From assembly GCF_009931435.1 (NCBI RefSeq), contig NZ_CP043414.1: DNA of 64,000 bases; one strand, given 5' to 3'. Source of the DNA: Escherichia coli. Its GTDB lineage: Bacteria > Pseudomonadota > Gammaproteobacteria > Enterobacterales > Enterobacteriaceae. The notes beneath the pieces were generated by a model. It saw nothing but the letters and a program-made list of their open reading frames with translations. It was not told the DNA's origin and searched no databases. Made by a program: the position numbers and the translations under genes. Every line of letters begins with the position of its first letter. Position 1 is the stretch's first letter. This document shows positions 1-41,462 of this stretch, one piece after another.

Positions 1-1
1 T

Positions 2-1171
2 TTGCGCCAGTTACCGCTGACCGATGAACAAAAGAAACGCATTCCGGAAGATGCCAGCACTTTGCACCGATTGCTGGGTGCGCAGCCGGGTAGCCAGCGT
101 TTACGTCATCATGCCGGTAACCCGCTGCATCTTGATGTGCTGGTGGTAGATGAAGCGTCAATGATCGATCTGCCTATGATGTCGAGACTGATCGACGCCT
201 TGCCCGATCATGCGCGAGTGATCTTTCTCGGCGATCGTGATCAACTGGCCTCGGTTGAGGCTGGGGCTGTGCTGGGCGATATCTGCGCTTATGCCAACGC
301 GGGCTTTACCGCCGAGCGTGCCGGGCAGTTGAGCCGCCTGACGGGAACTCACGTTCCGTCAGGAACTGGCACAGAAGCGGCATCTTTGCGCGACAGTCTC
401 TGCCTGCTGCAAAAAAGCTATCGTTTCGGCAGCGATTCTGGCATTGGTCAGTTAGCTGCGGCGATCAACCGTGGTGATAAAACGGCAGTGAAAACCGTTT
501 TTCAGCAGGATTTTACTGATATCGAAAAACGGCTTTTACAGAGCGGCGAAGACTATATTGCGATGCTTGAGGAGGCTCTTGCGGGTTACGGGCGTTATCT
601 GGATCTGCTGCAAGCGCGTGCCGAGCCGGATTTAATCATTCAGGCGTTCAATGAATACCAGCTTTTGTGCGCCCTGCGGGAAGGGCCGTTTGGCGTGGCT
701 GGATTGAATGAGCGAATTGAGCAGTTTATGCAACAGAAGCGCAAAATTCATCGTCATCCGCACTCACGCTGGTACGAAGGCCGGCCGGTAATGATTGCCC
801 GCAATGACAGCGCGCTTGGGTTGTTTAATGGTGATATCGGCATTGCGCTGGATCGTGGGCAGGGGACGCGCGTCTGGTTTGCGATGCCGGATGGCAATAT
901 TAAGTCTGTGCAACCGAGCCGCCTGCCAGAACACGAAACCACGTGGGCGATGACGGTACATAAATCGCAGGGATCGGAGTTTGACCATGCTGCGTTGATT
1001 TTACCGAGCCAACGCACGCCAGTTGTAACGCGAGAGCTGGTTTACACTGCGGTGACCCGCGCGCGTCGCCGTCTGTCGTTGTATGCCGATGAGCGCATAT
1101 TAAGTGCGGCAATCGCCACTCGTACTGAGCGGCGCAGTGGTCTGGCGGCGTTGTTTAGTTCGCGGGAATAA
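2..1171 (+). CDS. recD: RecD, exodeoxyribonuclease V alpha subunit (C-terminal 389 aa; 5' end lies left of window)
   Basis: ORF open from window edge; helicase motifs ([16 protein letters not shown]); position next to argA as in E. coli. Confidence 0.9.
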
Positions 1172-1175
1172 ACGT

Positions 1176-1441
<266 letters not shown>

Positions 1442-2754
1442 ACGCTGGTAGTTGTACAACTGCTTTTTGCTCTCGGGCAGTAAATCAATATCCACCGGGG
1501 TAAATCCACGTTCCTGGAACCAGTGAATACTGCGCGTGGTCAGTACAAACAATTTGCTTAATCCGCTTTGCTTCGCCTGAGCGGCAATGCGCTCCAGCAA
1601 AACCTCGCCCCTTGATGAGCTGCGGTAATCCGGGTGAACGGCCACACAGGCCATTTCCCCAATCTTCTCTTCCGGGAACGGATAGAGTGCTGCGCAGGCA
1701 ATAGTCGTGTTATCGCGCTGAATAATAGTGAATTTGTCGATTTCCATCTCCAGTTGCTCGCGAGAACGGCGTACCAGAATACCTTGCTGCTCCAGTGGGC
1801 GAATCAACTCCAGAATGCCGCCAATATCGTTGATGGTTGCGCGACGAATTTGCTCGGCGCTTTCCATCACAATCTGCGTACCGATACCGTCACGTGAGAA
1901 CAACTCTTGCAACAGCGCGCCATCTTCCTGGTAACTAATTAAATGACAGCGACGTACGCCGCTGCGGCAGGCTTTCACCGCACCACGCAAAAAGCGCACC
2001 GTACCGGAGTTGTAATCGCCTTTCTCTTCCTGAGCTTCTACCCGCGCTTGTGCTTCGTTAGGGAAAAGCTCGGAGACAATATCGCCGTCGTCATTAGTGA
2101 CGCCCTGTGAAGAGCAAAAACCAATCATCTTTTCAGCTTTCAGTTTGATGGCCAGTTGAGTGGCGATCTCTTCCGAGGTCAGATTAAAGCTCTCGCCAGT
2201 GACTGAAACCGCGACCGGCCCCAGCAGCACTATCGCACCGCTGTCCAGTTGACGATGAATCGCATCTTCGTCAATCCGCCGGATACGCCCGCTATGGCAG
2301 TAATCCACACCGTCATCCACGCCCAGCGGCTGGGCAATAATAAAATTGCCACTGACGACGTTGATATGCGCGCCCTGCAGCGGCGTGTTATTGAGACTCA
2401 TCGACAGGCGAGCAGTAATGTCCAGTTGCAATGTTCCCGCAGCCTGCTTCACCAGTTCTAGTGTTTTGGCGTCGGTCACGCGTATATTTTTGTGATATAG
2501 CGGTTCGTGGTGATGCGCTGCCAGATTCGCATCGATCTGCGGGCGCGCTCCATAGACCACGACCAGACGGATGCCGAGGCTGTGCAGCAACCCGATATCA
2601 TTAACGATACTGGAGAAATTCTCATGCTCAATGGCTTCACCGCCGAGCATGATGACAAACGTTTTTCCCCGGTGGGTATTGATATAAGGAACCGAATGGC
2701 GGAATCCCTCGACCAACTCGGTTTTACGTTCCTTCATCACGGCACACCTCTTTG

Positions 2755-2792
2755 CATGATTATTCGTAATTATTGTATTTTTATTCTGTTTT
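2755..2792. promoter_or_regulatory. Putative ArgR operator (ARG boxes) in argA promoter
   Basis: AT-rich TGTATTTTTATTCTGT-type motif immediately upstream of argA start; from memory of ARG box consensus. Confidence 0.35.
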
Positions 2793-2970
2793 TTCACTGG
2801 GTGCAAGTGCAAATTTTACGCATGAGCAACTTTTTTATCAGTAATGCCGTGAATATAAAAAGAATGTTTACCGTTTATTAGATGACAGATTATGCGTCTT
2901 TCGCTAAAGTTTCCGGTCAAATTAGTCGTTTATTTGTTACACAGCTTAGATTTTTTTGCTCGGGAGATGC

Positions 2971-4224
2971 ATGTCGGGATCCAACACAGCAATCAGCCGT
3001 CGTCGTTTACTGCAAGGCGCGGGTGCCATGTGGCTATTGAGCGTAAGTCAGGTCAGTCTGGCTGCGGTCAGCCAGGTCGTGGCGGTGCGCGTCTGGCCTG
3101 CGTCCAGCTACACCCGTGTGACGGTAGAATCTAATCGTCAGCTGAAATATAAGCAGTTCGCGTTGAGTAACCCTGAACGCGTGGTGGTGGATATCGAAGA
3201 TGTAAACCTGAACTCAGTGCTCAAGGGGATGGCGGCACAAATTCGTGCTGATGACCCGTTCATCAAGTCGGCGCGCGTCGGGCAGTTTGACCCGCAAACC
3301 GTGCGGATGGTTTTTGAGTTAAAGCAAAACGTAAAACCGCAGCTGTTTGCCCTTGCTCCGGTCGCCGGGTTTAAAGAGCGTCTGGTGATGGATCTCTATC
3401 CTGCCAATGCTCAGGACATGCAGGACCCGCTGCTGGCGCTGCTGGAGGATTACAATAAAGGCGATCTCGAAAAGCAGGTGCCGCCTGCGCAGAGTGGCCC
3501 GCAGCCAGGCAAAGCAGGGCGCGATCGTCCGATTGTCATTATGCTTGACCCTGGCCATGGCGGCGAAGACTCCGGTGCGGTGGGGAAATACAAAACGCGT
3601 GAAAAAGACGTGGTATTGCAAATTGCCCGCCGTTTGCGCTCTCTGATTGAGAAAGAGGGCAATATGAAAGTTTACATGACCCGTAATGAAGACATCTTCA
3701 TTCCGTTGCAAGTGCGCGTAGCAAAAGCACAGAAACAGCGTGCTGACTTGTTTGTCTCTATTCATGCCGATGCCTTTACCAGTCGCCAGCCGAGCGGTTC
3801 ATCTGTGTTTGCGCTCTCTACCAAAGGTGCAACCAGTACCGCGGCAAAATATCTGGCGCAAACTCAGAACGCCTCGGACTTGATTGGTGGCGTGAGTAAG
3901 AGCGGCGACCGTTATGTCGACCATACTATGTTCGATATGGTGCAGTCGCTGACCATTGCCGACAGTCTGAAGTTTGGTAAAGCTGTGTTGAATAAGCTCG
4001 GTAAAATCAACAAGCTGCATAAAAATCAGGTTGAACAAGCCGGGTTTGCCGTGCTGAAAGCGCCTGATATACCCTCCATTTTGGTCGAAACGGCGTTTAT
4101 CAGTAACGTTGAGGAAGAACGTAAACTGAAAACGGCAACCTTCCAGCAGGAAGTTGCGGAATCAATCCTCGCAGGAATAAAAGCGTATTTTGCCGATGGG
4201 GCGACGCTGGCGAGAAGGGGATAA
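2971..4224 (+). CDS. amiC: N-acetylmuramoyl-L-alanine amidase AmiC (Tat signal SRRRLLQG)
   Basis: Tat motif, amidase_3 domain, 417 aa from Met at 2971; synteny with argA. Confidence 0.9.
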
Positions 4225-4394
4225 TGTTTTTATTTATTCAATGAATTTATATTTCGTTGAATAGATAATATTTACCTGAATATTAGACGTTGGTTTTGTG
4301 ACTGATGTCGAATATTTGAATGTCGGCTTGAAAAATAAGCCGACCATCTCTTTAATTAAGCACAATTCCGTGTAATGTATATGCATTAGTTAAT

Positions 4395-4470
4395 CATCTT
4401 GTAACTGTTAAATCAGGCAAGGCAATGTTTGAAGTAATTATTACTTCTGACGTGCCTTGCCTTTTTTTTT
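4395..4470 (+). promoter_or_regulatory. RAT-like element overlapping a rho-independent terminator (stem AGGCAAGGCA/TGCCTTGCCT 4415-4462, then T9) in leader of antiterminator-PTS operon
   Basis: Perfect 10-bp inverted repeat followed by 9 T; upstream GTAACTG..CAGGCAA resembles bgl RAT; sits directly 5' of a BglG-family gene. Confidence 0.5.
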
Positions 4471-4481
4471 GGAGCTATGGA

Positions 4482-5306
4482 ATGATCATCGAAAAAGTCA
4501 TGAACAATAATTGTGTACAGGCATCGATGAATGGACAGGAGGTTATCATTTCTGGGCCTGGCGTCGGTTACAACAAAAAATATGGAATGTCGGTCCCTGA
4601 GCATCCGGCTAACCGGATTTTTTATGTCAGAAATGAACAAAAAAATAAACTCTACAAATTGATTGAACATGTGGATATTGAGTATGTTTTTGTTGCCGAA
4701 AAAATAGTGCAATATGCAGAGAACAATCTCGAAAAAAATCTCAATCCATCGCTACTATTGATTCTTGCTGATCACATTTCGAATGCAATATCCCGAGTCG
4801 CTTCAGGCATACAAATTAATAATGTTTTCCTTGATGAAATCAAAGCGTTGTACAAAGCAGAGTATGCGATAAGTCGCGATGCATTAACTATCATTAATGA
4901 GCAATTTAGCGTTCAACTTCCTGATGATGAGATTGGTTTTATAGCATTGCATATTTTAAATAATTATGAAAATTCAGTTGATTATGAATCAGTACGGATT
5001 ATTGAGTTGTCGCAAATAATCACGGGGCTTATTGAAGTTGTTTATAACAGAAAGGTGGACAGAAGTTCATTTAATTATTCCAGGTTCATGATACACCTTA
5101 AATATTTTTCAAGTCGCGTATTATGCAATGAAAAAATAAAACAGAAAGATATTGGTGATCTCTATGAACAGTTTCTTGAGAAAGACATTCTGTTACAGCG
5201 CGCAATTCATGAAATTGAAAGGTATTTGTACGCCACTTTTAAATATGAATTGATTTTGGAAGAAAAACTATATCTCTCTATTCGCACCAAAGTATTAATG
5301 GACTAA
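4482..5306 (+). CDS. BglG/LicT-family transcription antiterminator (CAT RNA-binding domain + 2 PRDs)
   Basis: N-terminal MIIEKVMNNNCVQA.. CAT-like, PRD-like IALHI motif; start moved to ATG 4482 with GGAG RBS because ORF-track start 4425 lies inside the terminator loop. Confidence 0.75.
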   Translation: MIIEKVMNNNCVQASMNGQEVIISGPGVGYNKKYGMSVPEHPANRIFYVRNEQKNKLYKLIEHVDIEYVFVAEKIVQYAENNLEKNLNPSLLLILADHISNAISRVASGIQINNVFLDEIKALYKAEYAISRDALTIINEQFSVQLPDDEIGFIALHILNNYENSVDYESVRIIELSQIITGLIEVVYNRKVDRSSFNYSRFMIHLKYFSSRVLCNEKIKQKDIGDLYEQFLEKDILLQRAIHEIERYLYATFKYELILEEKLYLSIRTKVLMD

Positions 5307-5337
5307 TTATATATAACATTTATATGAGATAACCCGC

Positions 5338-6918
5338 ATGAAACAAAAGAAAGCCTGGAGTTTTTTTCAGAGCCTGGGAAAGGCATTTATGTATCCCATC
5401 GCTCTGCTAAGTGTATGTGGCATGATGTTAGGGCTAGGAAGTGGTTTAGCCAGCGATGATATGGCAAAATTAATTCCACTACTGGCTATTCCCGTAATTA
5501 AAACCATTCTTGATTTTATTGTTAGCCTTGGTTTGTTTGCCTTTGTCAATTTACCTGTATTGTTTGCGATAGCTATACCTCTGGGGTTATTAAAAGAGAA
5601 AGAGGATAAAGCCTATGGCGCTTTTTCTGGCTTAATTGGTTTCATGGCGATGCATCTGGGAACGAACTTTTATCTTAAACAACATGACTTATTGGTCGCT
5701 GCTGATCAAATGTCGACACATGGGCAAACCATTATTCTGGGAATCCAGTCCTACAATACCAGTGTGTTGGGTGGGATTATAGCAGGATTATTAGTCGCCA
5801 GTATGTATAAAAAGATCGTTAACTTACGTATTCCTGAATCATTAGGATTTTATAGTGGCCCACGCCTGGTGCCTATTATTACACTGATTGTGATGAGTGG
5901 ATTTGGTCTGATCATCCCTTTTATCTGGCCGCCATTTTTCAATCTTTTCATGCTCATTGGCCACTGGATTTCAACTTCCGGTCCTGTTGGCTATTTTTTC
6001 TATGCAGTCGCCGAACGCGTGACGATACCTTTTGGTTTAAATCACCTGGTGACGTCAGTTTTCCGCTTTACCCCCATCGGCGGATCGGCAGTGATCGGCG
6101 GCGAAGAGTATTATGGCACCCTGAACATGTTTATGGCGTACGTCAAAGAGAATGCGGTCATTCCGCTGGATTTGGCGGGGAAAATGGAACAGGGCAAACT
6201 GATGATTCAGTATGGTCTGGCTGGTGCCGCGCTGGCGATGTATCGCACTGCTCATGCTCAAAACAGAAAAGCTATCAAAGCATTGCTTATTTCCGGGGTG
6301 CTTACAGTCATTATTGGCGGCGTCAGCGAACCGATTGAGTTTCTGTTCTTATTTGTCAGTCCACTGCTGTTTGTCTTCCATGCCTTTATGAATGGATTCG
6401 CCAACATGGTCTTGCCATATATGGGCGTGAAGATGGGATTTACTGGCGATCTGATTCAATTTATTAGCTTTGGCGTATTGCGTGGCACAAGAACAGGTTG
6501 GCCAATAGCGGTGTGTGTCGAAGTGGCCTATTTCTTTATTTATTACTTTGTGTTCCGTTGGACTATTCTCAAATTTAACCTGATGACGGTAGGCCGTGAA
6601 GAGTCCAGTCCTGTCACGCTGAACGCTCATGAGGATACGGCTATAGCGGATATCCCAACGCTTGATAAATCAGAGCTGCAAGCAGCGGAGCAGATGGTTA
6701 AGGCACTTGGTGGTAAAGAGAATATTAAATCCCTGGATAATTGCGTAACTCGTTTACGTTTAACAATCGCAGATATGGGATTGATTGACGAGGCAGCAAT
6801 AAAAAGAGCTGGCGGAATTGCGGTTGTTAAACTTGATCAAAATACCCTACAAGTCATTATCGGTACTAAAGTCATCGCCTTGCGTCGGGATATGGATAAC
6901 TACATGGGGATATGCTGA
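5338..6918 (+). CDS. PTS EIICB component, glucose/maltose (MalX/PtsG) family; no EIIA domain
   Basis: Multi-TM EIIC region plus C-terminal EIIB with NCVTRLRL phosphorylation-site motif. Confidence 0.85.
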   Translation: MKQKKAWSFFQSLGKAFMYPIALLSVCGMMLGLGSGLASDDMAKLIPLLAIPVIKTILDFIVSLGLFAFVNLPVLFAIAIPLGLLKEKEDKAYGAFSGLIGFMAMHLGTNFYLKQHDLLVAADQMSTHGQTIILGIQSYNTSVLGGIIAGLLVASMYKKIVNLRIPESLGFYSGPRLVPIITLIVMSGFGLIIPFIWPPFFNLFMLIGHWISTSGPVGYFFYAVAERVTIPFGLNHLVTSVFRFTPIGGSAVIGGEEYYGTLNMFMAYVKENAVIPLDLAGKMEQGKLMIQYGLAGAALAMYRTAHAQNRKAIKALLISGVLTVIIGGVSEPIEFLFLFVSPLLFVFHAFMNGFANMVLPYMGVKMGFTGDLIQFISFGVLRGTRTGWPIAVCVEVAYFFIYYFVFRWTILKFNLMTVGREESSPVTLNAHEDTAIADIPTLDKSELQAAEQMVKALGGKENIKSLDNCVTRLRLTIADMGLIDEAAIKRAGGIAVVKLDQNTLQVIIGTKVIALRRDMDNYMGIC

Positions 6919-8093
6919 TGGATGTTTTTAATACTCCTATTTCCCGCAAAGGAACATATTGTACCCAATGGGACTTTTGCGAGGACAGATTTGGTGTAAA
7001 AGATGTATTACCATTCTCTATTTCAGATATGGATCTTCCGATACCGGAAGCTATCATCAGGGCATTAAAAAAACGTCTGGAACACCCGATTTTAGGGTAC
7101 AGCCGTTGGCAGCATGATGACTATCTGAATGCGATAGTCAATTGGTATCATCAACAATATAAAACTGAAATCAAACCAGAATGGATCACCTATAGCCCAA
7201 GCGTGATGTACTCCATTGCTAAAGCAATAGAGTTATTGACATCGCATGGTGATAATATTCTCGTTTTTACACCTGTCTATAATGCATTTTTTGATATAAT
7301 TAAACATAGCGAGAGAAATATTCTGACAGCCTCTTTGATTATAAAAAATGAGGGGGGCTACGCTATCAATTGGCAAGATTTTGATCTTAAGATTCAAAGC
7401 GCAAAGATGGTGTTATTATGTAATCCTCATAACCCGACAGGAACCGTCTGGTCGGAAGAAGATCTGCATAAAATCGCTGCAAGCTGTGCAAGACATAATG
7501 TCTGGTTATGTTCAGATGAAATTCACAGTGATTTTGTTTTTAATCGTAGCTTTACATCTGCGCTTAAAATAAAAAAAGAAAAAGTAGTGGTGTTTAATTC
7601 GATATCGAAGACATTTAATGTTCCTGCGCTAACAGGATCGTATATGATTTCAACTGACGATAATTTTAATCATGAGTTCAGAACGATATCAAGATATCGC
7701 GATTTTGTAAACTCCCCATCCGTACTGAATATAATTGCAACTATTATTGCCTATAACGAATGTGAGGGATGGTTAACGTCATTAAAGGCACATATTGCCT
7801 CTAACATTCAATTCACCCAGCAGTATCTGAACGAAAATACTCCAGAATTGATCGTAAGGCCTGCTGATGGTTGCTATTTTTCGTGGATAGATTGCTCTGC
7901 TATTGGTTATCCCTTTGATGAATTCTACAGTCGATTAATTCATGAAGGCAAAGTGGGCATTATGGCGGGGAATGTCTATGGAACGGAGGGGGAGGGCTAC
8001 CTTCGTCTGAACCTGGCCTGCGGTCGAGAAAAATTATATATGGGGCTTACGCGTCTTGCGAGTGTAATTAAAAATATTAATCAAGGAAAATAA
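6912..8093 (+). CDS. PLP-dependent C-S lyase / aminotransferase, MalY/PatB-like
   Basis: GTYCTQWDF..PFSISDMD..GYSRW and SISKTFN (PLP-Lys) motifs similar to E. coli MalY from memory; alternative start ATG 6918 overlaps PTS stop (TGATG). Confidence 0.8.
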   Translation: MLMDVFNTPISRKGTYCTQWDFCEDRFGVKDVLPFSISDMDLPIPEAIIRALKKRLEHPILGYSRWQHDDYLNAIVNWYHQQYKTEIKPEWITYSPSVMYSIAKAIELLTSHGDNILVFTPVYNAFFDIIKHSERNILTASLIIKNEGGYAINWQDFDLKIQSAKMVLLCNPHNPTGTVWSEEDLHKIAASCARHNVWLCSDEIHSDFVFNRSFTSALKIKKEKVVVFNSISKTFNVPALTGSYMISTDDNFNHEFRTISRYRDFVNSPSVLNIIATIIAYNECEGWLTSLKAHIASNIQFTQQYLNENTPELIVRPADGCYFSWIDCSAIGYPFDEFYSRLIHEGKVGIMAGNVYGTEGEGYLRLNLACGREKLYMGLTRLASVIKNINQGK

Positions 8094-8095
8094 AA

Positions 8096-8692
8096 ATGAA
8101 CAGCACGGATCTTATCCATCTCATTAAACATTTTATGCGTAACGAACATAAAGCAGTTGAAGAAGTTATTGATTCCCCCCTTTCGGAGGTCGCAAATTTA
8201 ATTAAAGTATTACAGTCTTGTCAGGGGAAAGTTGTTTTTATTGGTGTCGGTAAGTCCGGTATTATTGCCCGAAAACTCGCCGCAACATTTGCCAGCACTG
8301 GAACTCCCTCGTTTTTTGTTCACGGTACTGAAGCCGTACACGGCGATCTTGGGATGGTGGCGAAAGATGATGTTGTTATTCTTATTTCAAACAGTGGTGA
8401 GACGACAGAAATCCTGGCAACACTACCTAGTCTGAAAAAAATGGGTAATTATTTGATCTCCTTTACCCGCAGTCATCGCTCATCGCTTGCGATAAGTTGT
8501 GATTTATCCGTTGAAATTCCCGTAAAAAGTGAGGCGGATAATTTAGGTTTAGCGCCGTCATGCTCATCAACAGTCGTTCTGGTTGTTGGTGATGCGGTGG
8601 CGCTTGCGCTCTCCGAATTGAAAAAGTTTACTCGTGCTGATTTCGGCTTATATCATCCAGGAGGTGCGCTCGGTATTAAAGCAAACTCATAA
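8096..8692 (+). CDS. SIS-domain sugar-phosphate isomerase, KdsD/GutQ-like arabinose-5-phosphate isomerase lacking CBS domains
   Basis: GVGKSGIIARKLAATFASTGTPSFFVHGTEAVHGDLGM..HPGGALG closely resembles KdsD SIS domain; protein ends right after SIS domain (198 aa). Confidence 0.8.
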   Translation: MNSTDLIHLIKHFMRNEHKAVEEVIDSPLSEVANLIKVLQSCQGKVVFIGVGKSGIIARKLAATFASTGTPSFFVHGTEAVHGDLGMVAKDDVVILISNSGETTEILATLPSLKKMGNYLISFTRSHRSSLAISCDLSVEIPVKSEADNLGLAPSCSSTVVLVVGDAVALALSELKKFTRADFGLYHPGGALGIKANS

Positions 8693-8753
8693 TTTTAGAA
8701 TATAAAACAGTAACCGGTCACGCCATCTTTTGGGGTGGCGTTCATTGATGTGA

Positions 8754-9710
8754 GTGTCAGCTATGAAAAACGTTCTGGTCACCGTTCCCAGCTTTTCAGC
8801 GCGTTGTGTTTCTGCCAGCAAGCTGCTAAGAGAAAATCATTTTAACCTTATTATCAAGAATAATGTGGAGCATCTGGTTAAATCAGAATCCACAGTATTA
8901 CGAGAATCTATTTGCGCAGTCATTGCCGGAAAAGATTGTTATCAAGCGGATACGTTATCGCGACTACCAGGAGTGAAAATAATATCGAGATTCGGGACAG
9001 GGATTGATAATATTGATCTTCATACGGCTCGACAATCAGGTATTGTGGTCAATAATGCTGTTGGGATTAATTCAAATGCAGTCGCGGAATTTATCATTGG
9101 TCTTATTTTTGCGAGCATGAGAAATATCCCCGGTAGCTATCATGCGATGCAAAATGGTTATTGGGGCGAGTCGCATGGCTGCGAGTTACAAGGTAAACGT
9201 ATTGGCCTGCTTGGCTACGGCAATATTGGCAAAACACTGGCGAAAAGGTTATCTGGTTTTGATGTTGAGCTTTTAGCTTTTGACAAACAACCCGATTTCC
9301 AGGCCGCAGGCAAAGATGGAGTTCAGTTCGTATCAATTGAAGATATCTTTATGCAGTCTCATGTCATCATCGTTCTTTTGCCATTTTCTCCGGAGCTGGA
9401 GAACTTCATTAGTCATAAATATTTGTCGATGATGCGCAATGGTGCTCTTATCATCAACGCCGCAAGGGGAAAGTTGCTGGATGAGGGTGCTTTACTTCAG
9501 GTAATTGAAGAACGAAATGTTTTTGCAGCGCTGGATGTGTTTAGCTCTGAACCGCTAGCGCAATTTAGCCCATTGCTACATGCCAGGAATATCATTACAA
9601 CGCCGCATATTGCGGCCGCCACCGTTGAGTCATACCAGCAAACCGGGATATACGTTGCCAGGTCGATAATAGATTTCTTTGCAGGAAGGGAGATAAAAAA
9701 CGTGCTGTGA
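8754..9710 (+). CDS. D-isomer-specific 2-hydroxyacid dehydrogenase family protein (NAD-binding)
   Basis: GLLGYGNIGKTLAKRL Rossmann motif and overall family layout. Confidence 0.8.
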   Translation: MSAMKNVLVTVPSFSARCVSASKLLRENHFNLIIKNNVEHLVKSESTVLRESICAVIAGKDCYQADTLSRLPGVKIISRFGTGIDNIDLHTARQSGIVVNNAVGINSNAVAEFIIGLIFASMRNIPGSYHAMQNGYWGESHGCELQGKRIGLLGYGNIGKTLAKRLSGFDVELLAFDKQPDFQAAGKDGVQFVSIEDIFMQSHVIIVLLPFSPELENFISHKYLSMMRNGALIINAARGKLLDEGALLQVIEERNVFAALDVFSSEPLAQFSPLLHARNIITTPHIAAATVESYQQTGIYVARSIIDFFAGREIKNVL

Positions 9711-9736
9711 GTTCAGCTAAGGAAGATTTCAGGTAC

Positions 9737-9771
9737 AAAAAAACCGCAATTTGTGAAACACATTGCGGTTT
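9737..9771 (-). terminator. Rho-independent terminator of tRNA-fMet operon (possibly bidirectional)
   Basis: AACCGCAAT/ATTGCGGTT stem, followed by T-run on minus strand, directly 3' of last tRNA. Confidence 0.5.
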
Positions 9772-9788
9772 ATCAGCATCATAAGTGT

Positions 9789-9865
<77 letters not shown>

Positions 9866-9898
9866 TCACCGTACTGCTTTACTTCATCAAATTTTGAT

Positions 9899-9975
<77 letters not shown>

Positions 9976-10008
9976 TCACCGTACTGCTTTACTTCATCAA
10001 ATTTTAAT

Positions 10009-10085
<77 letters not shown>

Positions 10086-10293
10086 TCCGTGGATGCGCAC
10101 TATACTCCGCTCGCGTTTTCATGCAACCTTTTTTTTACCCAGATCACGGATTTGGTATGATTTTGAGCAAAAACAAATCACTAAAGCCTGTTTTTTGTGC
10201 AAAATTTGCGTCAGGGAGAGGCTGCTCATTTCATTAAACGCAGCGGTTTGTTATCTTCATTGCGCCTTATTTTTTAAACTGAAGAAGAGAACA

Positions 10294-11391
10294 ATGAAAG
10301 GACGTTGGGTAAAGTACCTTCTTATGGGCACGGTTGTGGCAATGCTTGCCGCCTGCTCTTCCAAACCAACCGATCGCGGACAGCAATATAAAGACGGGAA
10401 ATTTACCCAGCCTTTCTCTCTGGTAAACCAGCCAGATGCCGTTGGCGCGCCAATTAACGCCGGTGATTTTGCCGAGCAAATTAACCATATCCGTACTTCG
10501 TCACCGCGTCTGTATGGCAACCAGAGTAATGTTTATAATGCGGTGCAGGAGTGGCTACGCGCAGGCGGTGATACCCGCAATATGCGTCAGTTCGGCATTG
10601 ACGCCTGGCAGATGGAAGGTGCCGACAACTATGGCAACGTGCAGTTTACGGGCTATTACACGCCTGTCATTCAGGCGCGCCATACCCGTCAGGGCGAGTT
10701 CCAGTATCCTATTTACCGTATGCCGCCAAAACGTGGTCGTCTGCCGTCTCGTGCGGAGATCTACGCGGGAGCATTGAGCGATAAATACATCCTCGCTTAC
10801 AGCAACTCTCTGATGGATAACTTCATTATGGATGTGCAGGGTAGCGGGTATATCGATTTTGGTGATGGCAGTCCGCTTAACTTCTTCAGCTATGCCGGAA
10901 AGAATGGTCATGCCTATCGCAGTATTGGTAAGGTGCTGATTGACCGTGGCGAAGTGAAAAAAGAAGATATGTCGATGCAGGCGATTCGTCACTGGGGTGA
11001 AACACACAGTGAAGCCGAGGTTCGCGAGCTGCTGGAACAGAACCCGTCTTTCGTCTTCTTTAAACCGCAATCTTTTGCTCCGGTGAAAGGGGCAAGTGCG
11101 GTGCCGCTGGTTGGTCGCGCTTCAGTTGCGTCCGATCGTTCCATTATCCCGCCTGGTACAACCTTACTGGCAGAAGTGCCGCTGCTGGATAATAACGGCA
11201 AATTTAACGGTCAGTACGAACTGCGGCTGATGGTGGCGCTGGATGTCGGTGGTGCAATCAAAGGCCAACACTTCGATATTTATCAAGGTATCGGGCCGGA
11301 AGCCGGACACCGCGCAGGTTGGTACAACCACTATGGACGTGTTTGGGTGCTGAAAACCGCCCCGGGCGCAGGTAACGTCTTTAGCGGCTGA
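10294..11391 (+). CDS. mltA: Membrane-bound lytic murein transglycosylase A (lipoprotein)
   Basis: MKGRWVKYLLMGTVVAMLAACSS lipobox; 365 aa; ORF-track N-terminal extension overlaps tRNA genes and is rejected. Confidence 0.9.
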   Translation: MKGRWVKYLLMGTVVAMLAACSSKPTDRGQQYKDGKFTQPFSLVNQPDAVGAPINAGDFAEQINHIRTSSPRLYGNQSNVYNAVQEWLRAGGDTRNMRQFGIDAWQMEGADNYGNVQFTGYYTPVIQARHTRQGEFQYPIYRMPPKRGRLPSRAEIYAGALSDKYILAYSNSLMDNFIMDVQGSGYIDFGDGSPLNFFSYAGKNGHAYRSIGKVLIDRGEVKKEDMSMQAIRHWGETHSEAEVRELLEQNPSFVFFKPQSFAPVKGASAVPLVGRASVASDRSIIPPGTTLLAEVPLLDNNGKFNGQYELRLMVALDVGGAIKGQHFDIYQGIGPEAGHRAGWYNHYGRVWVLKTAPGAGNVFSG

Positions 11392-11467
11392 TGTGTTATT
11401 CTGTATACCGTTTTGACGGATACGACAGGGTGAGGGATAACCTCGCCCTTTTTAATTCTGAGGTGCT

Positions 11468-12274
11468 ATGTCTGTGGTAATTAGTGATGCATGGCGTCAG
11501 CGTTTTGGTGGCACTGCGCGTCTGTATGGTGAAAAAGCGTTGCAACTGTTTGCTGATGCGCATATTTGTGTGGTCGGTATCGGTGGCGTTGGTTCCTGGG
11601 CGGCGGAAGCGCTGGCGCGCACGGGTATTGGCGCAATCACACTTATCGATATGGATGATGTGTGCGTCACTAATACCAATCGGCAAATTCACGCGCTGCG
11701 AGATAACGTCGGGCTGGCCAAAGCGGAAGTCATGGCCGAACGTATTCGCCAGATTAACCCGGAGTGCCGTGTAACGGTGGTGGATGACTTCGTGACGCCG
11801 GATAACGTAGCGCAATATATGAGTGCCGGTTATTCGTACGTGATTGATGCCATTGATAGTGTGCGACCCAAAGCGGCGCTGATTGCTTATTGTCGGCGCA
11901 ACAAAATCCCTCTGGTCACGACTGGTGGTGCTGGTGGGCAGATTGATCCGACGCAGATTCAGGTTACCGATCTGGCGAAAACGATTCAGGACCCGCTGGC
12001 GGCGAAGTTGCGCGAGCGCCTGAAAAGCGATTTTGGCGTAGTGAAAAACAGCAAAGGTAAGCTCGGCGTGGATTGCGTGTTCTCTACCGAAGCGCTGGTG
12101 TACCCGCAGTCAGACGGTACGGTGTGCGCGATGAAAGCCACGGCAGAAGGGCCGAAGCGGATGGATTGTGCATCTGGATTTGGTGCGGCGACGATGGTGA
12201 CCGCCACCTTTGGTTTTGTTGCGGTTTCTCATGCGTTGAAGAAGATGATGGCGAAAGCGGCGCGTCAGGGGTAA
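11468..12274 (+). CDS. tcdA: tRNA threonylcarbamoyladenosine dehydratase (ThiF/MoeB-like)
   Basis: VVGIGGVGSWAAEALARTGIG Rossmann motif; 268 aa; synteny with csdAE. Confidence 0.85.
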   Translation: MSVVISDAWRQRFGGTARLYGEKALQLFADAHICVVGIGGVGSWAAEALARTGIGAITLIDMDDVCVTNTNRQIHALRDNVGLAKAEVMAERIRQINPECRVTVVDDFVTPDNVAQYMSAGYSYVIDAIDSVRPKAALIAYCRRNKIPLVTTGGAGGQIDPTQIQVTDLAKTIQDPLAAKLRERLKSDFGVVKNSKGKLGVDCVFSTEALVYPQSDGTVCAMKATAEGPKRMDCASGFGAATMVTATFGFVAVSHALKKMMAKAARQG

Positions 12275-12280
12275 ACAATC

Positions 12281-12316
12281 AGGTCGGATGCGACGCGAAC
12301 GTCTTATCCGACCTGG
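12281..12316. repeat. REP-like palindrome between convergent tcdA and csdE
   Basis: AGGTCGGAT...ATCCGACCT inverted repeat. Confidence 0.4.
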
Positions 12317-12324
12317 TTTTGTGC

Positions 12325-12768
12325 TTAACCCTGCTTTGCCGCCGCGATAATCGCCTCGCTTAACGCATTCAACCCCTGACTGCGAGAGGCGCTAAGTTGC
12401 GCACGCAATCCCAGCTCATCAAACAATGCCAGCGGCGACTGTGCTTGCAATTCGGCGGCGGTTTTCCCCTCAACGGCAGTCAACAACACCGCCAGCAGGC
12501 CGCGCACAATGCGTCCTTCGCTGTCGCCAAAGAAATGCATCGTGCCGTTTTCAGCCACGGTATATCCCAGCCAGACGCGGTTTTCGCATCCGGCGATCTC
12601 TTTAGCCTGCGCTTTTAACTCGTCTGGCAAAGCTGGAAGCTGTTTCCCCAACATAATTAGCTGACGATATTTGTCTTCCCATTGAGTCAACGGCGCGAAA
12701 GTTTCGTGTAACGTCTTTACGGTAACGGTTGTGCCGAACGGATGTCCGGCGTATTGCGGGTTCGTCAT
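12325..12768 (-). CDS. csdE: Sulfur acceptor protein CsdE (SufE-like)
   Basis: 147 aa SufE-family ORF immediately downstream of csdA. Confidence 0.85.
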
Positions 12769-13973
12769 TAATCCACCAATAATTCCAGCGCACGGTCAAC
12801 GGCATTCACCAGCGCATCTACATCACTCTTTGTATTATATGGCGCAAAAGAGGCGCGCAGTGTGCCGGTTACGCCTAATTCTGCCAGTAGCGGCTGAGCG
12901 CAATGCTGCCCGGCCCGCAGGGCAATGCCGTACTCTGCCAACAGCGTCACCATATCGCTGTGATGAACGCCAGCAAAATCAAAGGCCAGCAGGCTGGAAT
13001 CCTGGCAGCGGAATGAACGAAAGCCTGGACGTTTCGCCAGCGCTTCTTCTGCCAGCGTTGCTAAGCTACGGCTCCAGCTTTCGGCCTGGTTGATATCATA
13101 ATCTGCCAGCCATTCCAGCGCCGCGCTTAATCCTATGACACCAGCGACATTTGGCGTTCCAGCTTCCAGTTTCCACGGCGCAGATTGAGTCGTGAAGCCG
13201 TCAAAACTCACTTCGTGAACCATTTTGCCGCCGCCCAGCCAGGGCGACATCGCTTCCAGCAGTTCTGATTTGCCATACAGCACGCCGATACCTGTCGGGC
13301 CATACAGTTTGTGACCTGAAAAAGCATAGAAATCAATATCCAGTTGCTGAACATCCGCGGGGAAATGCACCGCCCCCTGAGCACCATCAACCATCACCAC
13401 CATCCCGGCTGAATGAGCAAAGGTAATCGCTCGCGCCAGATCCGGGCAACCGCCAGTAACGTTCGACATCTGACCCAACGCCAGAATCCGACTATGGGGA
13501 GTAATCAGTTCAGGCAACAAATCGATATCTGGCAACCGCTGCGCATTAAGCGGCAATTTCAGCACTTTGGCTCCGGTTTGTTGGGCGACCATCAGCCAGG
13601 GGACGAGGTTGGCGTGATGCTCTGCCACACTGACAATAATTTCATCGCCCGGTTGCAGACGCGGACGCGCATAGCATTGCGCCACCATGTTGATGGATTC
13701 AGTGGTGCCACGCGTCCAGACGATAGTTTTGTCATCTGGTGCATTCAGTAATTGCGCCACTTTTTCCCGTGCAGCTTCGTAACGCGCGGTCAGGCGTTGG
13801 GCCTCGGCAAACTGGCTACGATGGACGTTTCCGGCGCTCAGGCTGTAAAACTGTCGGGTTGCTTCAACCACGGCTTCAGGTTTAAGCGCGGTCGCGGCAC
13901 TGTCGAGATAGACGCCCGCATCCTGTAGCGCGGGAAACTGGGCGCGAAATTGCGCGGGATTAAAAACGTTCAT
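12768..13973 (-). CDS. csdA: Cysteine desulfurase / sulfinate desulfinase CsdA
   Basis: Class V aminotransferase; 401 aa from [16 protein letters not shown]; PLP-Lys motif SGHK. Confidence 0.9.
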
Positions 13974-14161
13974 GGTACTCCTCGGCTTGATGCACCGATC
14001 GTGACGCAAAATTCACTTTGATACAAGGAGAGTGCTAACCATCAGAATTATCTGGATATCCTGGCGAAGCCGCGTAAGTAACATATGCTAAATAGTGTTA
14101 GGCGTTAATTTTAGCCTGTTAATCAATACTATTAAGATTTATTAATCGCTTTAAGGAGAAG

Positions 14162-22063: not shown

Positions 22064-22195
22064 AAAATGCGAAGAATAGATTGATACGATGAATATTTAT
22101 TCAAAGGTTATTCGTATCACAGTGGAGATGGCTTTAGTAGCGACGTTTATGCCGTACTTCACATTTTCAGTTTCTGATTATTGAGGAAAGCTGCA

Positions 22196-23695: not shown

Positions 23696-23698
23696 ATT

Positions 23699-24682
23699 AT
23701 GACTATCTCTGTAACCTCTCCAGACAGCAATAATAAGAAAATAAAGATAAATAAAGAACTTTTGATGCGCCTTGCGCCTCTTTTTAGCTTAATTATATTA
23801 GTGCTGTTTTTTAGTTTCAGCTCTCCCTTTTTCTTTAATACCGAAAATATCATGACGATTGCTCTGCAAACGTCGGTTATCGGCATTATGGCCATTGGGG
23901 TAACTTTCGTCATTATTACCGCGGGCATCGATCTTTCATTGGGTTCCGTGGTGGCTTTTTCTGGTGTCGCCGTGGGGATTTGCGCCACACTGGGCCTGCC
24001 GCTGCCAGTGTGTATTATTGCCGGTGTTTTAGCCGGTGGAATGTGCGGCTATGTGAATGGTTTGTTGGTCACTAAAATGACTATTCCACCGTTTATCGCT
24101 ACCTTGGGCCTGATGATGTCCGTCAGAGGTATCAATATGGTGATGACCGACGGGCGCGCCATCTATTTTGCCGATTACCCGATGTTCAAAACGCTCGCTC
24201 AGGGACGCTTGTTTGATGTGCTGCCTTATCCTGTTTTCTACCTGGTCATTGTGGCGCTTGTCGGCGCTTACATCCTGAAGAAAACGGTTATTGGTCGCTA
24301 TGTCTATGCCGTAGGCAGTAATGAAGTTGCTGCTCATCTTTCTGGTATTAAAGTTCAGCGCGTGAAAATTTTCGTCTATGCCTTCTGTGGTTTATTAACC
24401 GGGATTGCGGGTGTCATTCTCGCTTCTCGTCTCAACTCCGGACAACCGACGGTGGGTGTGGGTTATGAGCTGGAAGCTATTGCTGCGGTAGTGATCGGCG
24501 GAACCAGCTTAATGGGCGGTATTGGCACTATTGGCGGCACAATCATTGGCGCTTTCATTATGAGTGTACTGAAAAATGGCCTCAATTTAATGGGGGTCTC
24601 TCAGTTCTGGCAAATGGTCGCGATGGGCGTAGTTGTGGTCGCTGCCGTTTACCTCGATACATTACGCAAAAAGATTCGTTGA
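23699..24682 (+). CDS. Sugar ABC transporter permease (RbsC/AraH family)
   Basis: ~10 TM segments, family layout. Confidence 0.85.
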   Translation: MTISVTSPDSNNKKIKINKELLMRLAPLFSLIILVLFFSFSSPFFFNTENIMTIALQTSVIGIMAIGVTFVIITAGIDLSLGSVVAFSGVAVGICATLGLPLPVCIIAGVLAGGMCGYVNGLLVTKMTIPPFIATLGLMMSVRGINMVMTDGRAIYFADYPMFKTLAQGRLFDVLPYPVFYLVIVALVGAYILKKTVIGRYVYAVGSNEVAAHLSGIKVQRVKIFVYAFCGLLTGIAGVILASRLNSGQPTVGVGYELEAIAAVVIGGTSLMGGIGTIGGTIIGAFIMSVLKNGLNLMGVSQFWQMVAMGVVVVAAVYLDTLRKKIR

Positions 24683-41461: not shown

Positions 41462-41462
41462 G

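What the first reader, a model, noticed from the sequence alone, without database searches (positions are those of the whole stretch)
4225..9736. Accessory cassette between amiC and tRNA-fMet (metV): antiterminator, PTS EIICB, MalY-like C-S lyase, SIS-only API, 2-hydroxyacid dehydrogenase
These five co-directional genes are absent from the K-12 amiC-metV junction as I recall it and look AT-rich relative to the flanks. I believe the content matches the metV island of uropathogenic E. coli CFT073, where the SIS protein was shown to be an arabinose-5-phosphate isomerase. The transported substrate and overall pathway remain unknown to my knowledge. The enzyme mix (PTS uptake, C-S/C-N cleavage, pentose-phosphate isomerisation, keto-acid reduction) suggests catabolism of a sugar conjugate.
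Basis: partly seen in the sequence, partly recalled or inferred. Interest (0 to 1): 0.6.

Follow-up and report, generated by a model that had tools for sequence, protein, structure and literature searches.

The report
Known PTS–lyase sugar operon beside metV
This is an intact, slightly divergent copy of an already described five-gene sugar-uptake operon (c3405–c3410 of uropathogenic E. coli CFT073) between amiC and the initiator-tRNA genes; the compound it consumes is still unknown.

Summary
Five co-directional, tightly packed genes lie between amiC and the tRNA-fMet triplet: a BglG/LicT-type antiterminator, a MalX-like PTS EIICB, a MalY/PatB C-S lyase, a SIS-only KpsF/GutQ-type isomerase and a PGDH-like 2-hydroxyacid dehydrogenase. 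GC is 33-49% against 51-58% in the flanks. K-12 has only 73 bp at this junction.

The cassette is 94% identical in DNA to the amiC-proximal end of PAI-metV in CFT073. The CFT073 SIS protein is identical to PDB 5UQI, and the window protein is 97% identical to it. So this is a known element.

My analysis adds four points:
- A conserved RAT-plus-terminator switch lies in the leader.
- The cassette lies outside the repeat-bounded T6SS island. It diverges about as much as its core flanks and is under purifying selection. It occurs in 31% of complete E. coli genomes, not only ExPEC.
- It belongs to a widespread malX-malY-type pairing of a PTS permease with a beta-lyase. Relatives lacking the Glc-family EIICB sit beside other PTS families, several with aminopeptidases.
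- The SIS partner recurs in Gram-positives, which argues against a role in Kdo synthesis.

The likeliest function is inducible catabolism of a sugar–amino-acid conjugate. The substrate remains unidentified.

The parts
4322..4344 (+). Hairpin followed by a T-rich tail; probable amiC terminator (context, not part of the operon)
   Evidence: Found by the terminator scan. It is not conserved in the Citrobacter copy of the cassette, which sits at another chromosomal site.
4399..4421 (+). RAT-like antiterminator target: TTGTAACTG-N6-CAGGCAAG
   Evidence: The pattern occurs once in the 64 kb window and 0 times in 100 shuffles. It is present in every homologous locus examined. The upper stem is 100% paired, with a G-C to A-U compensatory change in 3 of 9 sequences. 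Its resemblance to the LicT/SacY RAT consensus is from my memory.
4415..4470 (+). Leader intrinsic terminator: hairpin 4415-4462 plus a T9 run 4462-4470. Its 5' arm overlaps the 3' half of the RAT.
   Evidence: Fold energy is -28.8 kcal/mol, z = -4.6, and 0 of 200 shuffles fold as well. It appears as inverted repeat I2. The stem covaries between E. coli, Citrobacter and Enterobacter.
4482..5306 (+). BglG/LicT-family transcription antiterminator (CAT RNA-binding domain plus PRD1 and PRD2)
   Evidence: NCBIfam LicT E = 2e-67, 227 bits, below the equivalog cutoff of 300. The homologues carry Pfam CAT_RBD plus PRD. Three of LicT's four regulatory His are invariant; the fourth is Arg in E. coli and Citrobacter.
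5338..6918 (+). Glucose-family PTS permease EIICB, MalX-like, with no EIIA domain
   Evidence: TIGR02004 PTS-IIBC-malX scores 537 bits (cutoff 632), and the EIIB_glc domain scores above its cutoff. The GVSEP and NCVTRLR motifs are visible in the translation.
6918..8093 (+). MalY/PatB-family PLP-dependent beta C-S lyase. Its start overlaps the EIICB stop.
   Evidence: TIGR04350 scores 366 bits, above the cutoff of 340. The best solved relatives are E. coli MalY (1D2F) and entry 4DGT (that 4DGT is from C. difficile is my recollection). The PLP lysine (K233 in the SISKTFN motif) is invariant in 14 relatives.
8096..8692 (+). SIS-only arabinose-5-phosphate isomerase; allele of CFT073 c3406
   Evidence: It is 97% identical to PDB 5UQI/5VHU, and that chain is identical to the CFT073 protein. 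It matches KdsD profile positions 36-201 of 328, so the CBS pair is absent. The window residues aligned with KdsD K59, H88, E111, E152 and H193 are invariant in all cassette homologues.
8763..9710 (+). D-isomer-specific 2-hydroxyacid dehydrogenase, PGDH-like, without an ACT domain
   Evidence: TIGR01327 PGDH scores 210 bits against a cutoff of 454, so it is not a SerA equivalog. The best PDB match is the short PGDH 1WWK. The family is rare: 51 proteins at E <= 1e-40.
9741..9771 (.). Hairpin between the dehydrogenase gene and metV. It is flanked by an A7 run on the + strand, which reads as a U run for the minus-strand tRNA operon. Probable terminator for the tRNA operon and, more weakly, for the cassette.
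   Evidence: Fold z = -3.1. It appears as inverted repeat I5.
9789..10085 (-). Three tRNA-fMet genes (metV, metW, metZ equivalents). The 3' end of the first one abuts the cassette.
   Evidence: ARAGORN, Rfam tRNA at 61.4 bits each, and the K-12 annotation.

Best explanation
The region is the chromosomal operon known from uropathogenic E. coli CFT073 as c3405-c3410, the amiC-proximal end of 'PAI-metV'. Here it is a ~6% divergent allele and lacks the adjacent T6SS island.

Proposed mechanism:
1. Transcription starts in the amiC-proximal leader and stops at an intrinsic terminator (4415-4470), unless the operon's own BglG/LicT-type antiterminator binds the overlapping RAT hairpin (4399-4421). This step is shown by sequence and conservation.
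2. By analogy with BglG/LicT, the antiterminator is kept inactive through PRD phosphorylation by the idle EIICB and is released when substrate is transported. This step is inferred.
3. The MalX-like EIICB imports and phosphorylates a glycoside-like substrate. It probably draws on the general proteins EI and HPr and on EIIA-Glc (Crr), because no EIIA is encoded. This step is inferred.
4. The translationally coupled MalY/PatB-type PLP lyase removes an amino-acid moiety by beta-elimination. The products would be a sugar phosphate plus a 2-oxo acid (pyruvate) and ammonia. This step is inferred from comparative genomics.
5. The SIS-only isomerase converts the released aldose phosphate to the ketose phosphate that enters the pentose-phosphate pathway. 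Its in vitro reaction is arabinose-5-P to ribulose-5-P.
6. The dehydrogenase, present only in the E. coli/Citrobacter version, reduces or oxidises a 2-oxo/2-hydroxy acid by-product. This is the weakest step.

The substrate class I favour is a sugar linked through O or S to the beta-carbon of an amino acid, that is a glyco-amino acid or trimmed glycopeptide. The actual compound is unknown.
For: Identity with the known element:
- 94.06% nt identity to CFT073 across 5,556 bp, with the same order and neighbours.
- The CFT073 SIS protein is identical to PDB 5UQI.
- PMC2831201 describes c3405-c3410 within PAI-CFT073-metV.

The genes are functional:
- dN/dS is 0.03-0.12 for all five genes against UTI89.
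- Catalytic residues are conserved.
- Gene junctions overlap or are tight.

Regulation:
- The RAT is unique in the window.
- It overlaps a strong terminator.
- It is conserved with compensatory changes in E. coli, Citrobacter, Enterobacter, a Bacilli contig and C. difficile.

Coupling of permease and lyase:
- 68 of the 80 best lyase-homologue loci from GTDB species genomes have a Glc-family EIICB immediately upstream. These include the canonical malI-malX-malY arrangement.
- 10 of the 12 others sit beside Lac- or Fru-family PTS components. Six of those 12 include M42 and M24 aminopeptidases (one of them, a short contig, shows the peptidases but no PTS gene), and two include a PepT-like peptidase.
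- The L. sakei malY cluster is described the same way in PMC5845896.

The isomerase is part of the module and not a Kdo enzyme:
- The SIS-only protein follows the lyase in C. difficile (CD3027-CD3031) and in a Bacilli contig. By textbook knowledge these organisms make no Kdo.
- All KdsD catalytic residues are kept in them.
- The C. difficile genes are co-regulated (PMC4026244).
Against: - No substrate has been identified. The literature held here still calls the region uncharacterised.
- An arabinose-5-P intermediate does not follow naturally from a hexoside taken up by a glucose-family permease.
- The role of the dehydrogenase is a guess. Its nearest non-cassette relatives sit in TRAP-transporter/DHDPS-like/kinase sugar-acid clusters, which points to sugar-acid rather than pyruvate chemistry.
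- Characterised MalY/PatB enzymes show generic cystathionase, cysteine desulfhydrase or racemase activities. E. coli MalY also acts as a regulator of MalT.
- From memory of Mosberg et al. 2011, deleting c3406 alone did not reproduce the mouse colonisation defect of the c3405-10 deletion.
- The fourth regulatory His of the antiterminator is Arg in E. coli and Citrobacter, so control may differ from LicT.
Confidence: 0.6

Rival explanations
1. Regulatory accessory model. The EIICB is simply a secondary glucose/maltose-type permease. The lyase and the isomerase act as regulators, not catabolic enzymes: the lyase as E. coli MalY does on MalT, and the isomerase by making arabinose-5-P as a signal, as proposed for GutQ in the glucitol PTS operon.
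For: The EIICB is closest to MalX (41% identity according to PMC12928451). MalY is a known MalT antagonist whose 'endogenous ligand remains unclear' (PMC5845896). GutQ is described as linked to regulation of the gut operon (PMC10448790), which is a precedent for an API gene inside a PTS operon.
Against: The PLP lysine and the API catalytic residues are invariant across phyla. The permease-lyase pairing persists in taxa with quite different regulators: MalI, BglG-type, Mga/PRD-type and FrvR-type. According to PMC5845896, at least L. sakei has no MalT homologue. Peptidase genes in the related clusters make metabolic sense, not regulatory sense.
Confidence: 0.15
2. Amino-sugar-acid route. The PTS substrate is a 2-amino-2-deoxy sugar acid or a similar compound. 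The PLP enzyme acts as an aminotransferase or ammonia-lyase to give a 2-oxo sugar-acid phosphate. The PGDH-like enzyme reduces this, and the isomerase handles a pentose phosphate formed after decarboxylation or cleavage.
For: The dehydrogenase family acts on 2-oxo/2-hydroxy acids, including phosphorylated ones, with PGDH, PdxB and GhrB among the hits. Its nearest outside relatives lie in sugar-acid-type clusters containing a TRAP transporter, a DHDPS-family enzyme, a PfkB kinase and a FucI-like isomerase. The lyase also hits many aminotransferase models.
Against: The dehydrogenase is missing from most versions of the module: C. difficile, Enterobacter, the Bacilli contig and all malXY loci. 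It therefore cannot be a core step. The lyase passes the PatB C-S lyase cutoff and fails every aminotransferase cutoff. Glucose-family EIICBs are not known to carry sugar acids apart from MurNAc (textbook knowledge).
Confidence: 0.1
3. Biosynthetic model. The isomerase is an extra source of arabinose-5-P for Kdo, LPS or capsule in extraintestinal strains, and the rest of the cassette is incidental.
For: The protein is 48% identical to KdsD across the aligned sequence and keeps all of its catalytic residues. From memory, API paralogues such as KpsF serve capsule synthesis in ExPEC, and c3406 complements API deficiency.
Against: The same SIS-only gene sits in the same permease-lyase context in C. 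difficile and in a Bacilli contig. The gene is embedded in a substrate-inducible PTS operon. From memory, the c3406 single mutant kept virulence.
Confidence: 0.05
4. Decaying remnant of an old island with no current function.
For: The dehydrogenase is frameshifted in strain R32_14_1F. Truncated dehydrogenase clusters and lyase-SIS fusion proteins exist in databases. The cassette is absent from about two thirds of E. coli genomes.
Against: All five ORFs are intact here. dN/dS is 0.03-0.12, with dS of 0.16-0.43. The regulatory RNA is conserved. From memory of Lloyd et al. 2009, deletion in CFT073 reduced fitness in mice.
Confidence: 0.03

Closest known systems
E. coli CFT073 c3405-c3410, the amiC-proximal end of PAI-CFT073-metV (= GR19 of APEC BEN2908)
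   Same: Same chromosomal junction, same five genes in the same order, 94% nt identity and 93-98% protein identity. The SIS protein is the crystallised c3406 (PDB 5UQI) at 97% identity. The leader RNA is identical in the RAT sequence itself and differs at one loop position of the terminator.
   Different: The window has no T6SS island between the cassette and metV and no 14-nt tRNA remnant. The allele belongs to a deep-branching lineage.
E. coli K-12 malI-malX-malY
   Same: A Glc-family EIICB gene is followed directly by a MalY/PatB lyase gene, and no EIIA is encoded. The cassette proteins are the closest paralogues: 41% identity to MalX and 36% to MalY according to PMC12928451, with MalY as the best PDB hit. 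The physiological substrate is also unknown.
   Different: malXY is controlled by the LacI-type repressor MalI, not by RAT antitermination. It has no SIS isomerase and no dehydrogenase. The cassette proteins score below the MalX model cutoffs.
Clostridioides difficile CD3027-CD3031 (antiterminator, 'malX', 'malY', phosphosugar isomerase, EIIA). From memory, also the Clostridium tetani API locus described by Cech et al. 2017.
   Same: The order antiterminator, EIICB, lyase, SIS-only isomerase is the same, with RAT elements. The lyase is 48% identical and the isomerase 49% identical, with all catalytic residues kept.
   Different: It has an EIIA-Glc gene in place of the dehydrogenase. Four tandem RAT-terminator units lie between the antiterminator and EIICB genes, not one unit upstream of the antiterminator. 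The fourth PRD His is retained.
BglG/LicT/SacY RAT-dependent antitermination systems (bgl, lic, sac operons)
   Same: CAT domain plus two PRDs, and a RAT hairpin overlapping a terminator 5' arm. The regulator gene itself lies downstream of the switch, as bglG does.
   Different: The controlled permease belongs to the MalX branch, not the beta-glucoside or sucrose branch. The regulator scores below the LicT, GlcT and BglG equivalog cutoffs. One regulatory His is replaced by Arg.
KdsD/GutQ/KpsF arabinose-5-phosphate isomerases
   Same: SIS fold and the catalytic Lys, His and Glu residues. API activity was reported for c3406 (memory; PDB names).
   Different: It lacks the C-terminal CBS pair. Its genomic context is catabolic and PTS-linked, not LPS or capsule.

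Membership tests
PAI-metV c3405-c3410 cassette of CFT073 | Located at the amiC / metZWV junction | tested here: met
   The window has amiC at 2971-4224, the cassette, then the tRNAs at 9789-10085. CFT073 has the cassette next to amiC.
PAI-metV c3405-c3410 cassette of CFT073 | Same five genes in the same order with high identity | tested here: met
   94.06% nt identity over 5,556 bp with one gap; proteins 92.7-98.5% identical.
PAI-metV (whole 32-kb island) | T6SS gene cluster between metV and the cassette | tested here: not met
   The window has 78 bp between the dehydrogenase stop and the tRNA. CFT073 and UTI89 carry the T6SS there. Of the 1,688 genomes with the cassette, 567 have the window-like arrangement.
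BglG/LicT antiterminators | N-terminal CAT RNA-binding domain plus PRD1 and PRD2 | tested here: met
   The LicT model aligns across positions 1-269 of 273. Homologues carry Pfam CAT_RBD plus PRD.
BglG/LicT antiterminators | Four conserved regulatory histidines (LicT H100, H159, H207, H269) | tested here: inconclusive
   Three are invariant. The position equivalent to H269 is Arg in E. coli and Citrobacter but His in Enterobacter, the Bacilli contig and C. difficile.
BglG/LicT antiterminators | RAT target overlapping an intrinsic terminator | tested here: met
   No binding or read-through experiment is possible with these tools.
Glucose-family PTS EIICB (MalX branch) | EIIC domain plus an EIIB domain with the phosphorylatable Cys; score above the family cutoff | tested here: inconclusive
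   The EIIB_glc domain is above its cutoff (62 against 45.75). The NCVTRLR and GVSEP motifs are present. The MalX models score 537 and 526 bits, below their cutoffs of 632 and 665, so this is a related branch and not a MalX orthologue.
MalY/PatB C-S lyases | TIGR04350 above its cutoff and the PLP-binding lysine present | tested here: met
   366 bits against a cutoff of 340. K233 is invariant.
MalY/PatB C-S lyases | Beta C-S (or C-O) lyase activity | not testable with these tools
   Only relatives have been assayed: E. coli MalY, C. difficile MalY and L. sakei MalY.
Arabinose-5-phosphate isomerases (KdsD/GutQ/KpsF) | SIS domain with the catalytic Lys, His and Glu residues | tested here: met
   The residues aligned with KdsD K59, H88, E111, E152 and H193 are invariant. 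The list of catalytic residues is from my memory.
Arabinose-5-phosphate isomerases (KdsD/GutQ/KpsF) | Tandem CBS domains C-terminal to the SIS domain | tested here: not met
   The protein ends at 198 aa and matches KdsD profile positions 36-201 of 328. It belongs to the SIS-only subclass exemplified by c3406 / 5UQI.
Arabinose-5-phosphate isomerases (KdsD/GutQ/KpsF) | Measured A5P to Ru5P activity | not testable with these tools
   Activity was reported for the 97% identical c3406. The primary paper is not held. The PDB entry is named phosphosugar isomerase.
D-3-phosphoglycerate dehydrogenase (SerA) | Score above the equivalog cutoff | tested here: not met
   TIGR01327 scores 210 against 454 and PRK11790 scores 150 against 404. 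It should be filed only as a D-2-hydroxyacid dehydrogenase of unknown substrate.

The most novel reading that the evidence does not exclude
The MalX/MalY-type pairing of a PTS permease with a PLP beta-lyase, of which this cassette is the isomerase-bearing branch, may be an unrecognised general pathway for eating O- or S-glycosylated amino acids and trimmed glycopeptides. In this pathway the sugar is phosphorylated on entry and then released by enzymatic beta-elimination, not by a glycosidase. The API-containing branch would be specialised for a conjugate that releases arabinose-5-phosphate or a close analogue. If true, this would also explain the 35-year-old puzzle of malXY and the PTS-aminopeptidase operons frv, ypd and sgc.
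Probability: 0.2. Interest if true: 0.7.

Novelty: already known. Interest (0 to 1): 0.3.

Why it matters
By my recollection of Lloyd et al. 2009, the cassette was tied to urinary-tract fitness of CFT073. It is carried by about a third of sequenced E. coli, including the major ExPEC lineages. Its isomerase has been crystallised, yet nobody knows what it feeds on. Identifying the substrate would name a host- or diet-derived nutrient that separates these lineages from K-12-like strains. Because the permease-lyase pair is shared with malXY and with C. difficile CD3027-31, it would probably assign function to a large, cross-phylum set of 'maltose/glucose-like' PTS operons. The finding itself adds no new element. 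It is a correct recognition of a known one.

Tried and rejected
- Rfam, with permissive thresholds over 4100-10200, found only the three tRNAs. No curated family covers the leader.
- I looked for signs that the cassette is itself a tRNA-integrated mobile unit. The window has no copy of the 14-nt tRNA 3' end apart from the three tRNAs. There are no flanking direct repeats and no integrase or transposase ORF. I rejected that idea. The att-like repeat in CFT073 and UTI89 bounds the T6SS island only.
- The generic promoter scan gave no more hits than shuffled sequence, so I assign no promoter.
- Primary papers could not be retrieved: Mosberg 2011, Lloyd 2009, Cech 2017 and Dubois 2016. Statements from them are marked as memory.
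- Searches for locus tags c3405-c3410, CD3027-31, frvX/ypdE/sgcX and for PTS-lyase-glycopeptide terms found no paper defining a substrate.
- I looked for a third universally conserved enzyme next to permease-lyase pairs by clustering all neighbouring ORFs in 89 loci. Beyond regulators and lineage-specific synteny there was none.
- I considered that the SIS protein might be a MurQ-like etherase. I rejected this because the MurQ models hit only at E ~1e-7, against 4e-58 for KdsD.


Full report
OBSERVATION. The stretch 4225-9736 holds five co-directional + strand ORFs. RefSeq annotates the same genes at identical coordinates in a ~99% identical genome, strain 2013C-4282:
- PRD-domain protein, 4482-5306
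- PTS EIIC(B), 5338-6918
- MalY/PatB protein, 6918-8093
- KpsF/GutQ-family isomerase, 8096-8692
- 'phosphoglycerate dehydrogenase', 8763-9710

Upstream lies amiC (2971-4224). Downstream lie three tRNA-Met(CAU) genes on the minus strand (9789-10085) and then mltA. GC is 0.33-0.49 in the cassette and 0.51-0.58 in the flanks. This is the lowest-GC part of the 64-kb window. In K-12 MG1655, amiC and metV are 73 bp apart. The only coordinate correction is that the antiterminator starts at 4482, not at the first ATG of the long ORF (4425), because 4399-4470 is a regulatory RNA.

IDENTITY WITH THE KNOWN ELEMENT. CFT073 carries, in order, mltA, metZWV, a ~27-kb T6SS cluster, the same five genes, then amiC. 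The window is 94.06% identical to the CFT073 cassette over 5,556 bp with a single gap. Protein identities are 97.8% (antiterminator), 98.5% (EIICB), 95.4% (lyase), 97.0% (isomerase) and 92.7% (dehydrogenase).

The CFT073 isomerase is residue-for-residue identical to PDB 5UQI/5VHU, 'phosphosugar isomerase'. The table that lists 5UQI among fold matches in PMC13326640 also lists UniProt Q8FD73, named arabinose 5-phosphate isomerase, as a match for another phage protein; that Q8FD73 is c3406 is my assumption. PMC2831201 describes c3405-c3410 as a colinear set inside PAI-CFT073-metV, labels it a maltose/glucose-type PTS system, and finds it in four UPEC, E2348/69 and SMS-3-5. PMC3573123 and PMC2907695 give PAI-metV as 32 kb and T6SS-bearing.

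The primary enzymology and virulence papers were not held. These are Mosberg et al. 2011 (J Bacteriol 193:2981) and Lloyd et al. 2009 (J Bacteriol 191:3469). From memory, they reported three things: the c3405-10 deletion lowered fitness in mouse UTI, c3406 has API activity, and a c3406 single mutant was not attenuated. A 2026 genome paper on APEC BEN2908 still lists the five ORFs ('GR19') as uncharacterised (PMC12928451).

DISTRIBUTION AND HISTORY. The cassette is present once per genome, on the chromosome (one of 1,690 matched places lies on a plasmid), in 1,688 of 5,426 complete E. coli genomes. Identity to the window falls in discrete classes: 94 genomes at >=99%, 51 at 95-99% and 1,543 at 90-95%. 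Carriers include strain SE15, an O127:H6 strain, ST131, and isolates from goat, cattle, frog and water. It is lineage-linked, not ExPEC-specific. In 567 genomes it abuts the tRNAs directly, as it does here.

In CFT073 and UTI89 the cassette is followed by a 14-nt copy of the tRNA-fMet 3' end (TGGTTGCGGGGGCC) and then by the T6SS island, which ends at the intact metV. The T6SS island is therefore the repeat-bounded insertion, and the cassette lies outside it. The window has no such remnant, no flanking repeats and no mobility gene.

Between the window and UTI89, synonymous divergence of the cassette genes (dS 0.16-0.43) is about the same as that of the adjacent core genes amiC (0.36) and argA (0.24). 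dN/dS is 0.03-0.12. The window's lineage is deep-branching. Its recD-argA-amiC stretch is 93.9-96.8% identical to both K-12 and UTI89, which are 98.1% identical to each other. A distant core segment is about 97% identical to virtually all 5,426 genomes.

My inference is that the cassette is an old resident of this junction, kept under purifying selection in some lineages and missing from K-12-like ones. It is not cargo of the mobile T6SS island. Citrobacter freundii and relatives have all five genes at a different chromosomal site, with 68-85% protein identity.

THE PROTEINS.
- The regulator aligns end to end with LicT. It keeps three of the four regulatory histidines. The fourth is Arg in E. 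coli and Citrobacter and His elsewhere.
- The permease is a Glc-family EIICB closest to MalX but below that family's cutoffs. The EIIB cysteine motif is present and there is no EIIA.
- The lyase passes the PatB C-S lyase cutoff. Its best solved relatives are E. coli MalY (1D2F) and entry 4DGT, which I recall as C. difficile MalY. The PLP lysine is invariant.
- The isomerase is a KdsD-like SIS domain without CBS domains. The residues aligned with KdsD K59, H88, E111, E152 and H193 are invariant in all cassette homologues.
- The dehydrogenase is a D-2-hydroxyacid dehydrogenase well below the SerA cutoffs. Its family is small, with 51 proteins at E <= 1e-40. Its nearest relatives outside the cassette (41-43% identity) lie in clusters of LacI, a DHDPS-like enzyme, a TRAP transporter, a kinase and a FucI-like isomerase, which look like sugar-acid catabolism.

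REGULATION. The leader contains TTGTAACTG-N6-CAGGCAAG at 4399-4421. This matches the RAT consensus of LicT/SacY-type systems as I remember it. It occurs once in the window and never in 100 shuffles. Its 3' half overlaps the 5' arm of a long hairpin (4415-4462) followed by nine T's. That hairpin folds at -28.8 kcal/mol with z = -4.6. A GGAG Shine-Dalgarno sequence and the ATG at 4482 follow.

The same RAT-terminator pair precedes the antiterminator gene in UTI89, Citrobacter and two Enterobacter loci. It occurs twice in a Bacilli contig and four times in tandem in C. difficile. The RAT upper stem shows a G-C to A-U compensatory change, and the terminator stems covary. The operon, including its own regulator, is therefore almost certainly controlled by substrate-dependent antitermination. 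Phosphorylation control by the EIICB and HPr is inferred by analogy.

FAMILY CONTEXT. Sixty-eight of them have a Glc-family EIICB gene immediately upstream of the lyase. They come from Enterobacterales, Vibrionaceae, Aeromonas, Bacilli, Fusobacterium, Brachyspira and Streptomyces. The lower-scoring enterobacterial ones are canonical malI-malX-malY.

The isomerase accompanies only the subclade closest to the cassette: E. coli, Citrobacter, Enterobacter spp., C. difficile CD3027-31 and a Bacilli contig. The dehydrogenase accompanies only E. coli/Citrobacter and one metagenomic contig.

Of the 12 loci without a Glc-family EIICB, 10 lie beside other PTS families:
- four (L017 type) have a Lac-family EIIC with M42 and YpdF-like M24 aminopeptidases, and a fifth, a short contig, shows the same two peptidases without a detected PTS gene;
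- one has Fru-type IIA/IIB/IIC genes with the same two peptidases;
- four (L041 type) have a Frv-like Fru-family IIA/IIBC with an FrvR-like regulator, two of them also with a PepT-like peptidase;
- one has a PRD regulator with Fru-like IIA/IIB/IIC genes and no peptidase.

PMC5845896 describes the L. sakei malY cluster in the same way. No other enzyme is universally conserved next to the pair.

MECHANISM AND RIVALS. A beta-lyase needs a free alpha-amino group and a leaving group on the beta-carbon. Its persistent coupling to sugar permeases, sometimes with aminopeptidases, is most simply explained if the substrates are sugars O- or S-linked to Ser, Thr or Cys. In that case, phosphorylation on entry followed by beta-elimination would yield a sugar phosphate plus pyruvate and ammonia with no glycosidase. 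The isomerase would then handle the released aldose phosphate.

The isomerase keeps its place in Gram-positive versions. This argues against a Kdo or capsule role and for arabinose-5-P, or an analogue, as a genuine intermediate or signal. What does not fit is that an A5P product is not expected from a hexoside, and the place of the dehydrogenase is unclear.

The rivals are: (i) lyase and isomerase as regulators, by analogy with MalY-MalT and GutQ; (ii) an amino-sugar-acid route using the PLP enzyme as a transaminase or ammonia-lyase and the dehydrogenase on a 2-oxo acid phosphate; (iii) an extra A5P supply for Kdo; (iv) a decaying remnant. The evidence for and against each is given in the structured fields.

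VERDICT. Nothing here is a new kind of system, and the window copy is an allele of a published cassette with a solved enzyme structure. The unresolved point, the substrate, is real and of moderate interest. This analysis narrows it to a testable class and provides a ready-made biosensor (the RAT leader), but it does not solve it.

Noticed in passing
window 22181-28403: Between fucI and fucO the window carries five + strand genes: an Rbs-like ABC transporter (ATPase, permease, binding protein), an FGGY pentulose kinase and a LacI/FruR-like regulator. The closest complete genome (2013C-4282) and CFT073 have fucP at the fucI-proximal end of this interval. No fucP-sized ORF remains at this position. 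From memory this resembles the D-arabinose/D-ribulokinase variant of the fuc cluster in E. coli B.
   Followed up: partly
L007 5999-6332 (C. difficile, between the antiterminator gene and the EIICB gene): There are four tandem copies, about 104 nt apart, of a complete RAT-plus-terminator unit. This is an unusual serial arrangement of antitermination switches in front of one permease gene.
   Followed up: partly
window 1-4224, 10086-14000 and 40000-48000: The window comes from a deep-branching Escherichia lineage. Core DNA is only ~94-97% identical to K-12 and UTI89, while those two are 98% identical to each other. Over segment 40000-48000, only one of 5,426 complete genomes reaches 99%. amiC shows dS of 0.36 against UTI89 with an identical protein sequence.
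   Followed up: partly
L098/L099 (CFT073 3222091-3254819) and L002 11556-11569 (UTI89): The T6SS part of PAI-metV is bounded by metV and a 14-nt direct repeat of the tRNA 3' end. The metabolic cassette lies outside this unit. 'PAI-metV' as usually drawn is therefore a composite of two elements with different histories.
   Followed up: yes
L001 10539-11485 (strain R32_14_1F) and proteins P0002-P0010: The dehydrogenase gene is frameshifted in one near-identical strain. Some E. coli and Shigella records carry 550-592-aa lyase-SIS fusion proteins. This suggests occasional decay or fusion at the 2-nt lyase/isomerase junction.
   Followed up: no
L093 5010-15914 and L095 5009-13559 (Oceanobacillus-type clusters): The nearest non-cassette relatives of the dehydrogenase sit in clusters of LacI, a DHDPS-family enzyme, a TRAP transporter, the dehydrogenase, a PfkB kinase (in one of the two clusters), a FucI-like isomerase and an FGGY kinase. 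The content would suit catabolism of a 2-keto-3-deoxy sugar acid yielding a pentose. A Kdo-like acid is my speculation.
   Followed up: no
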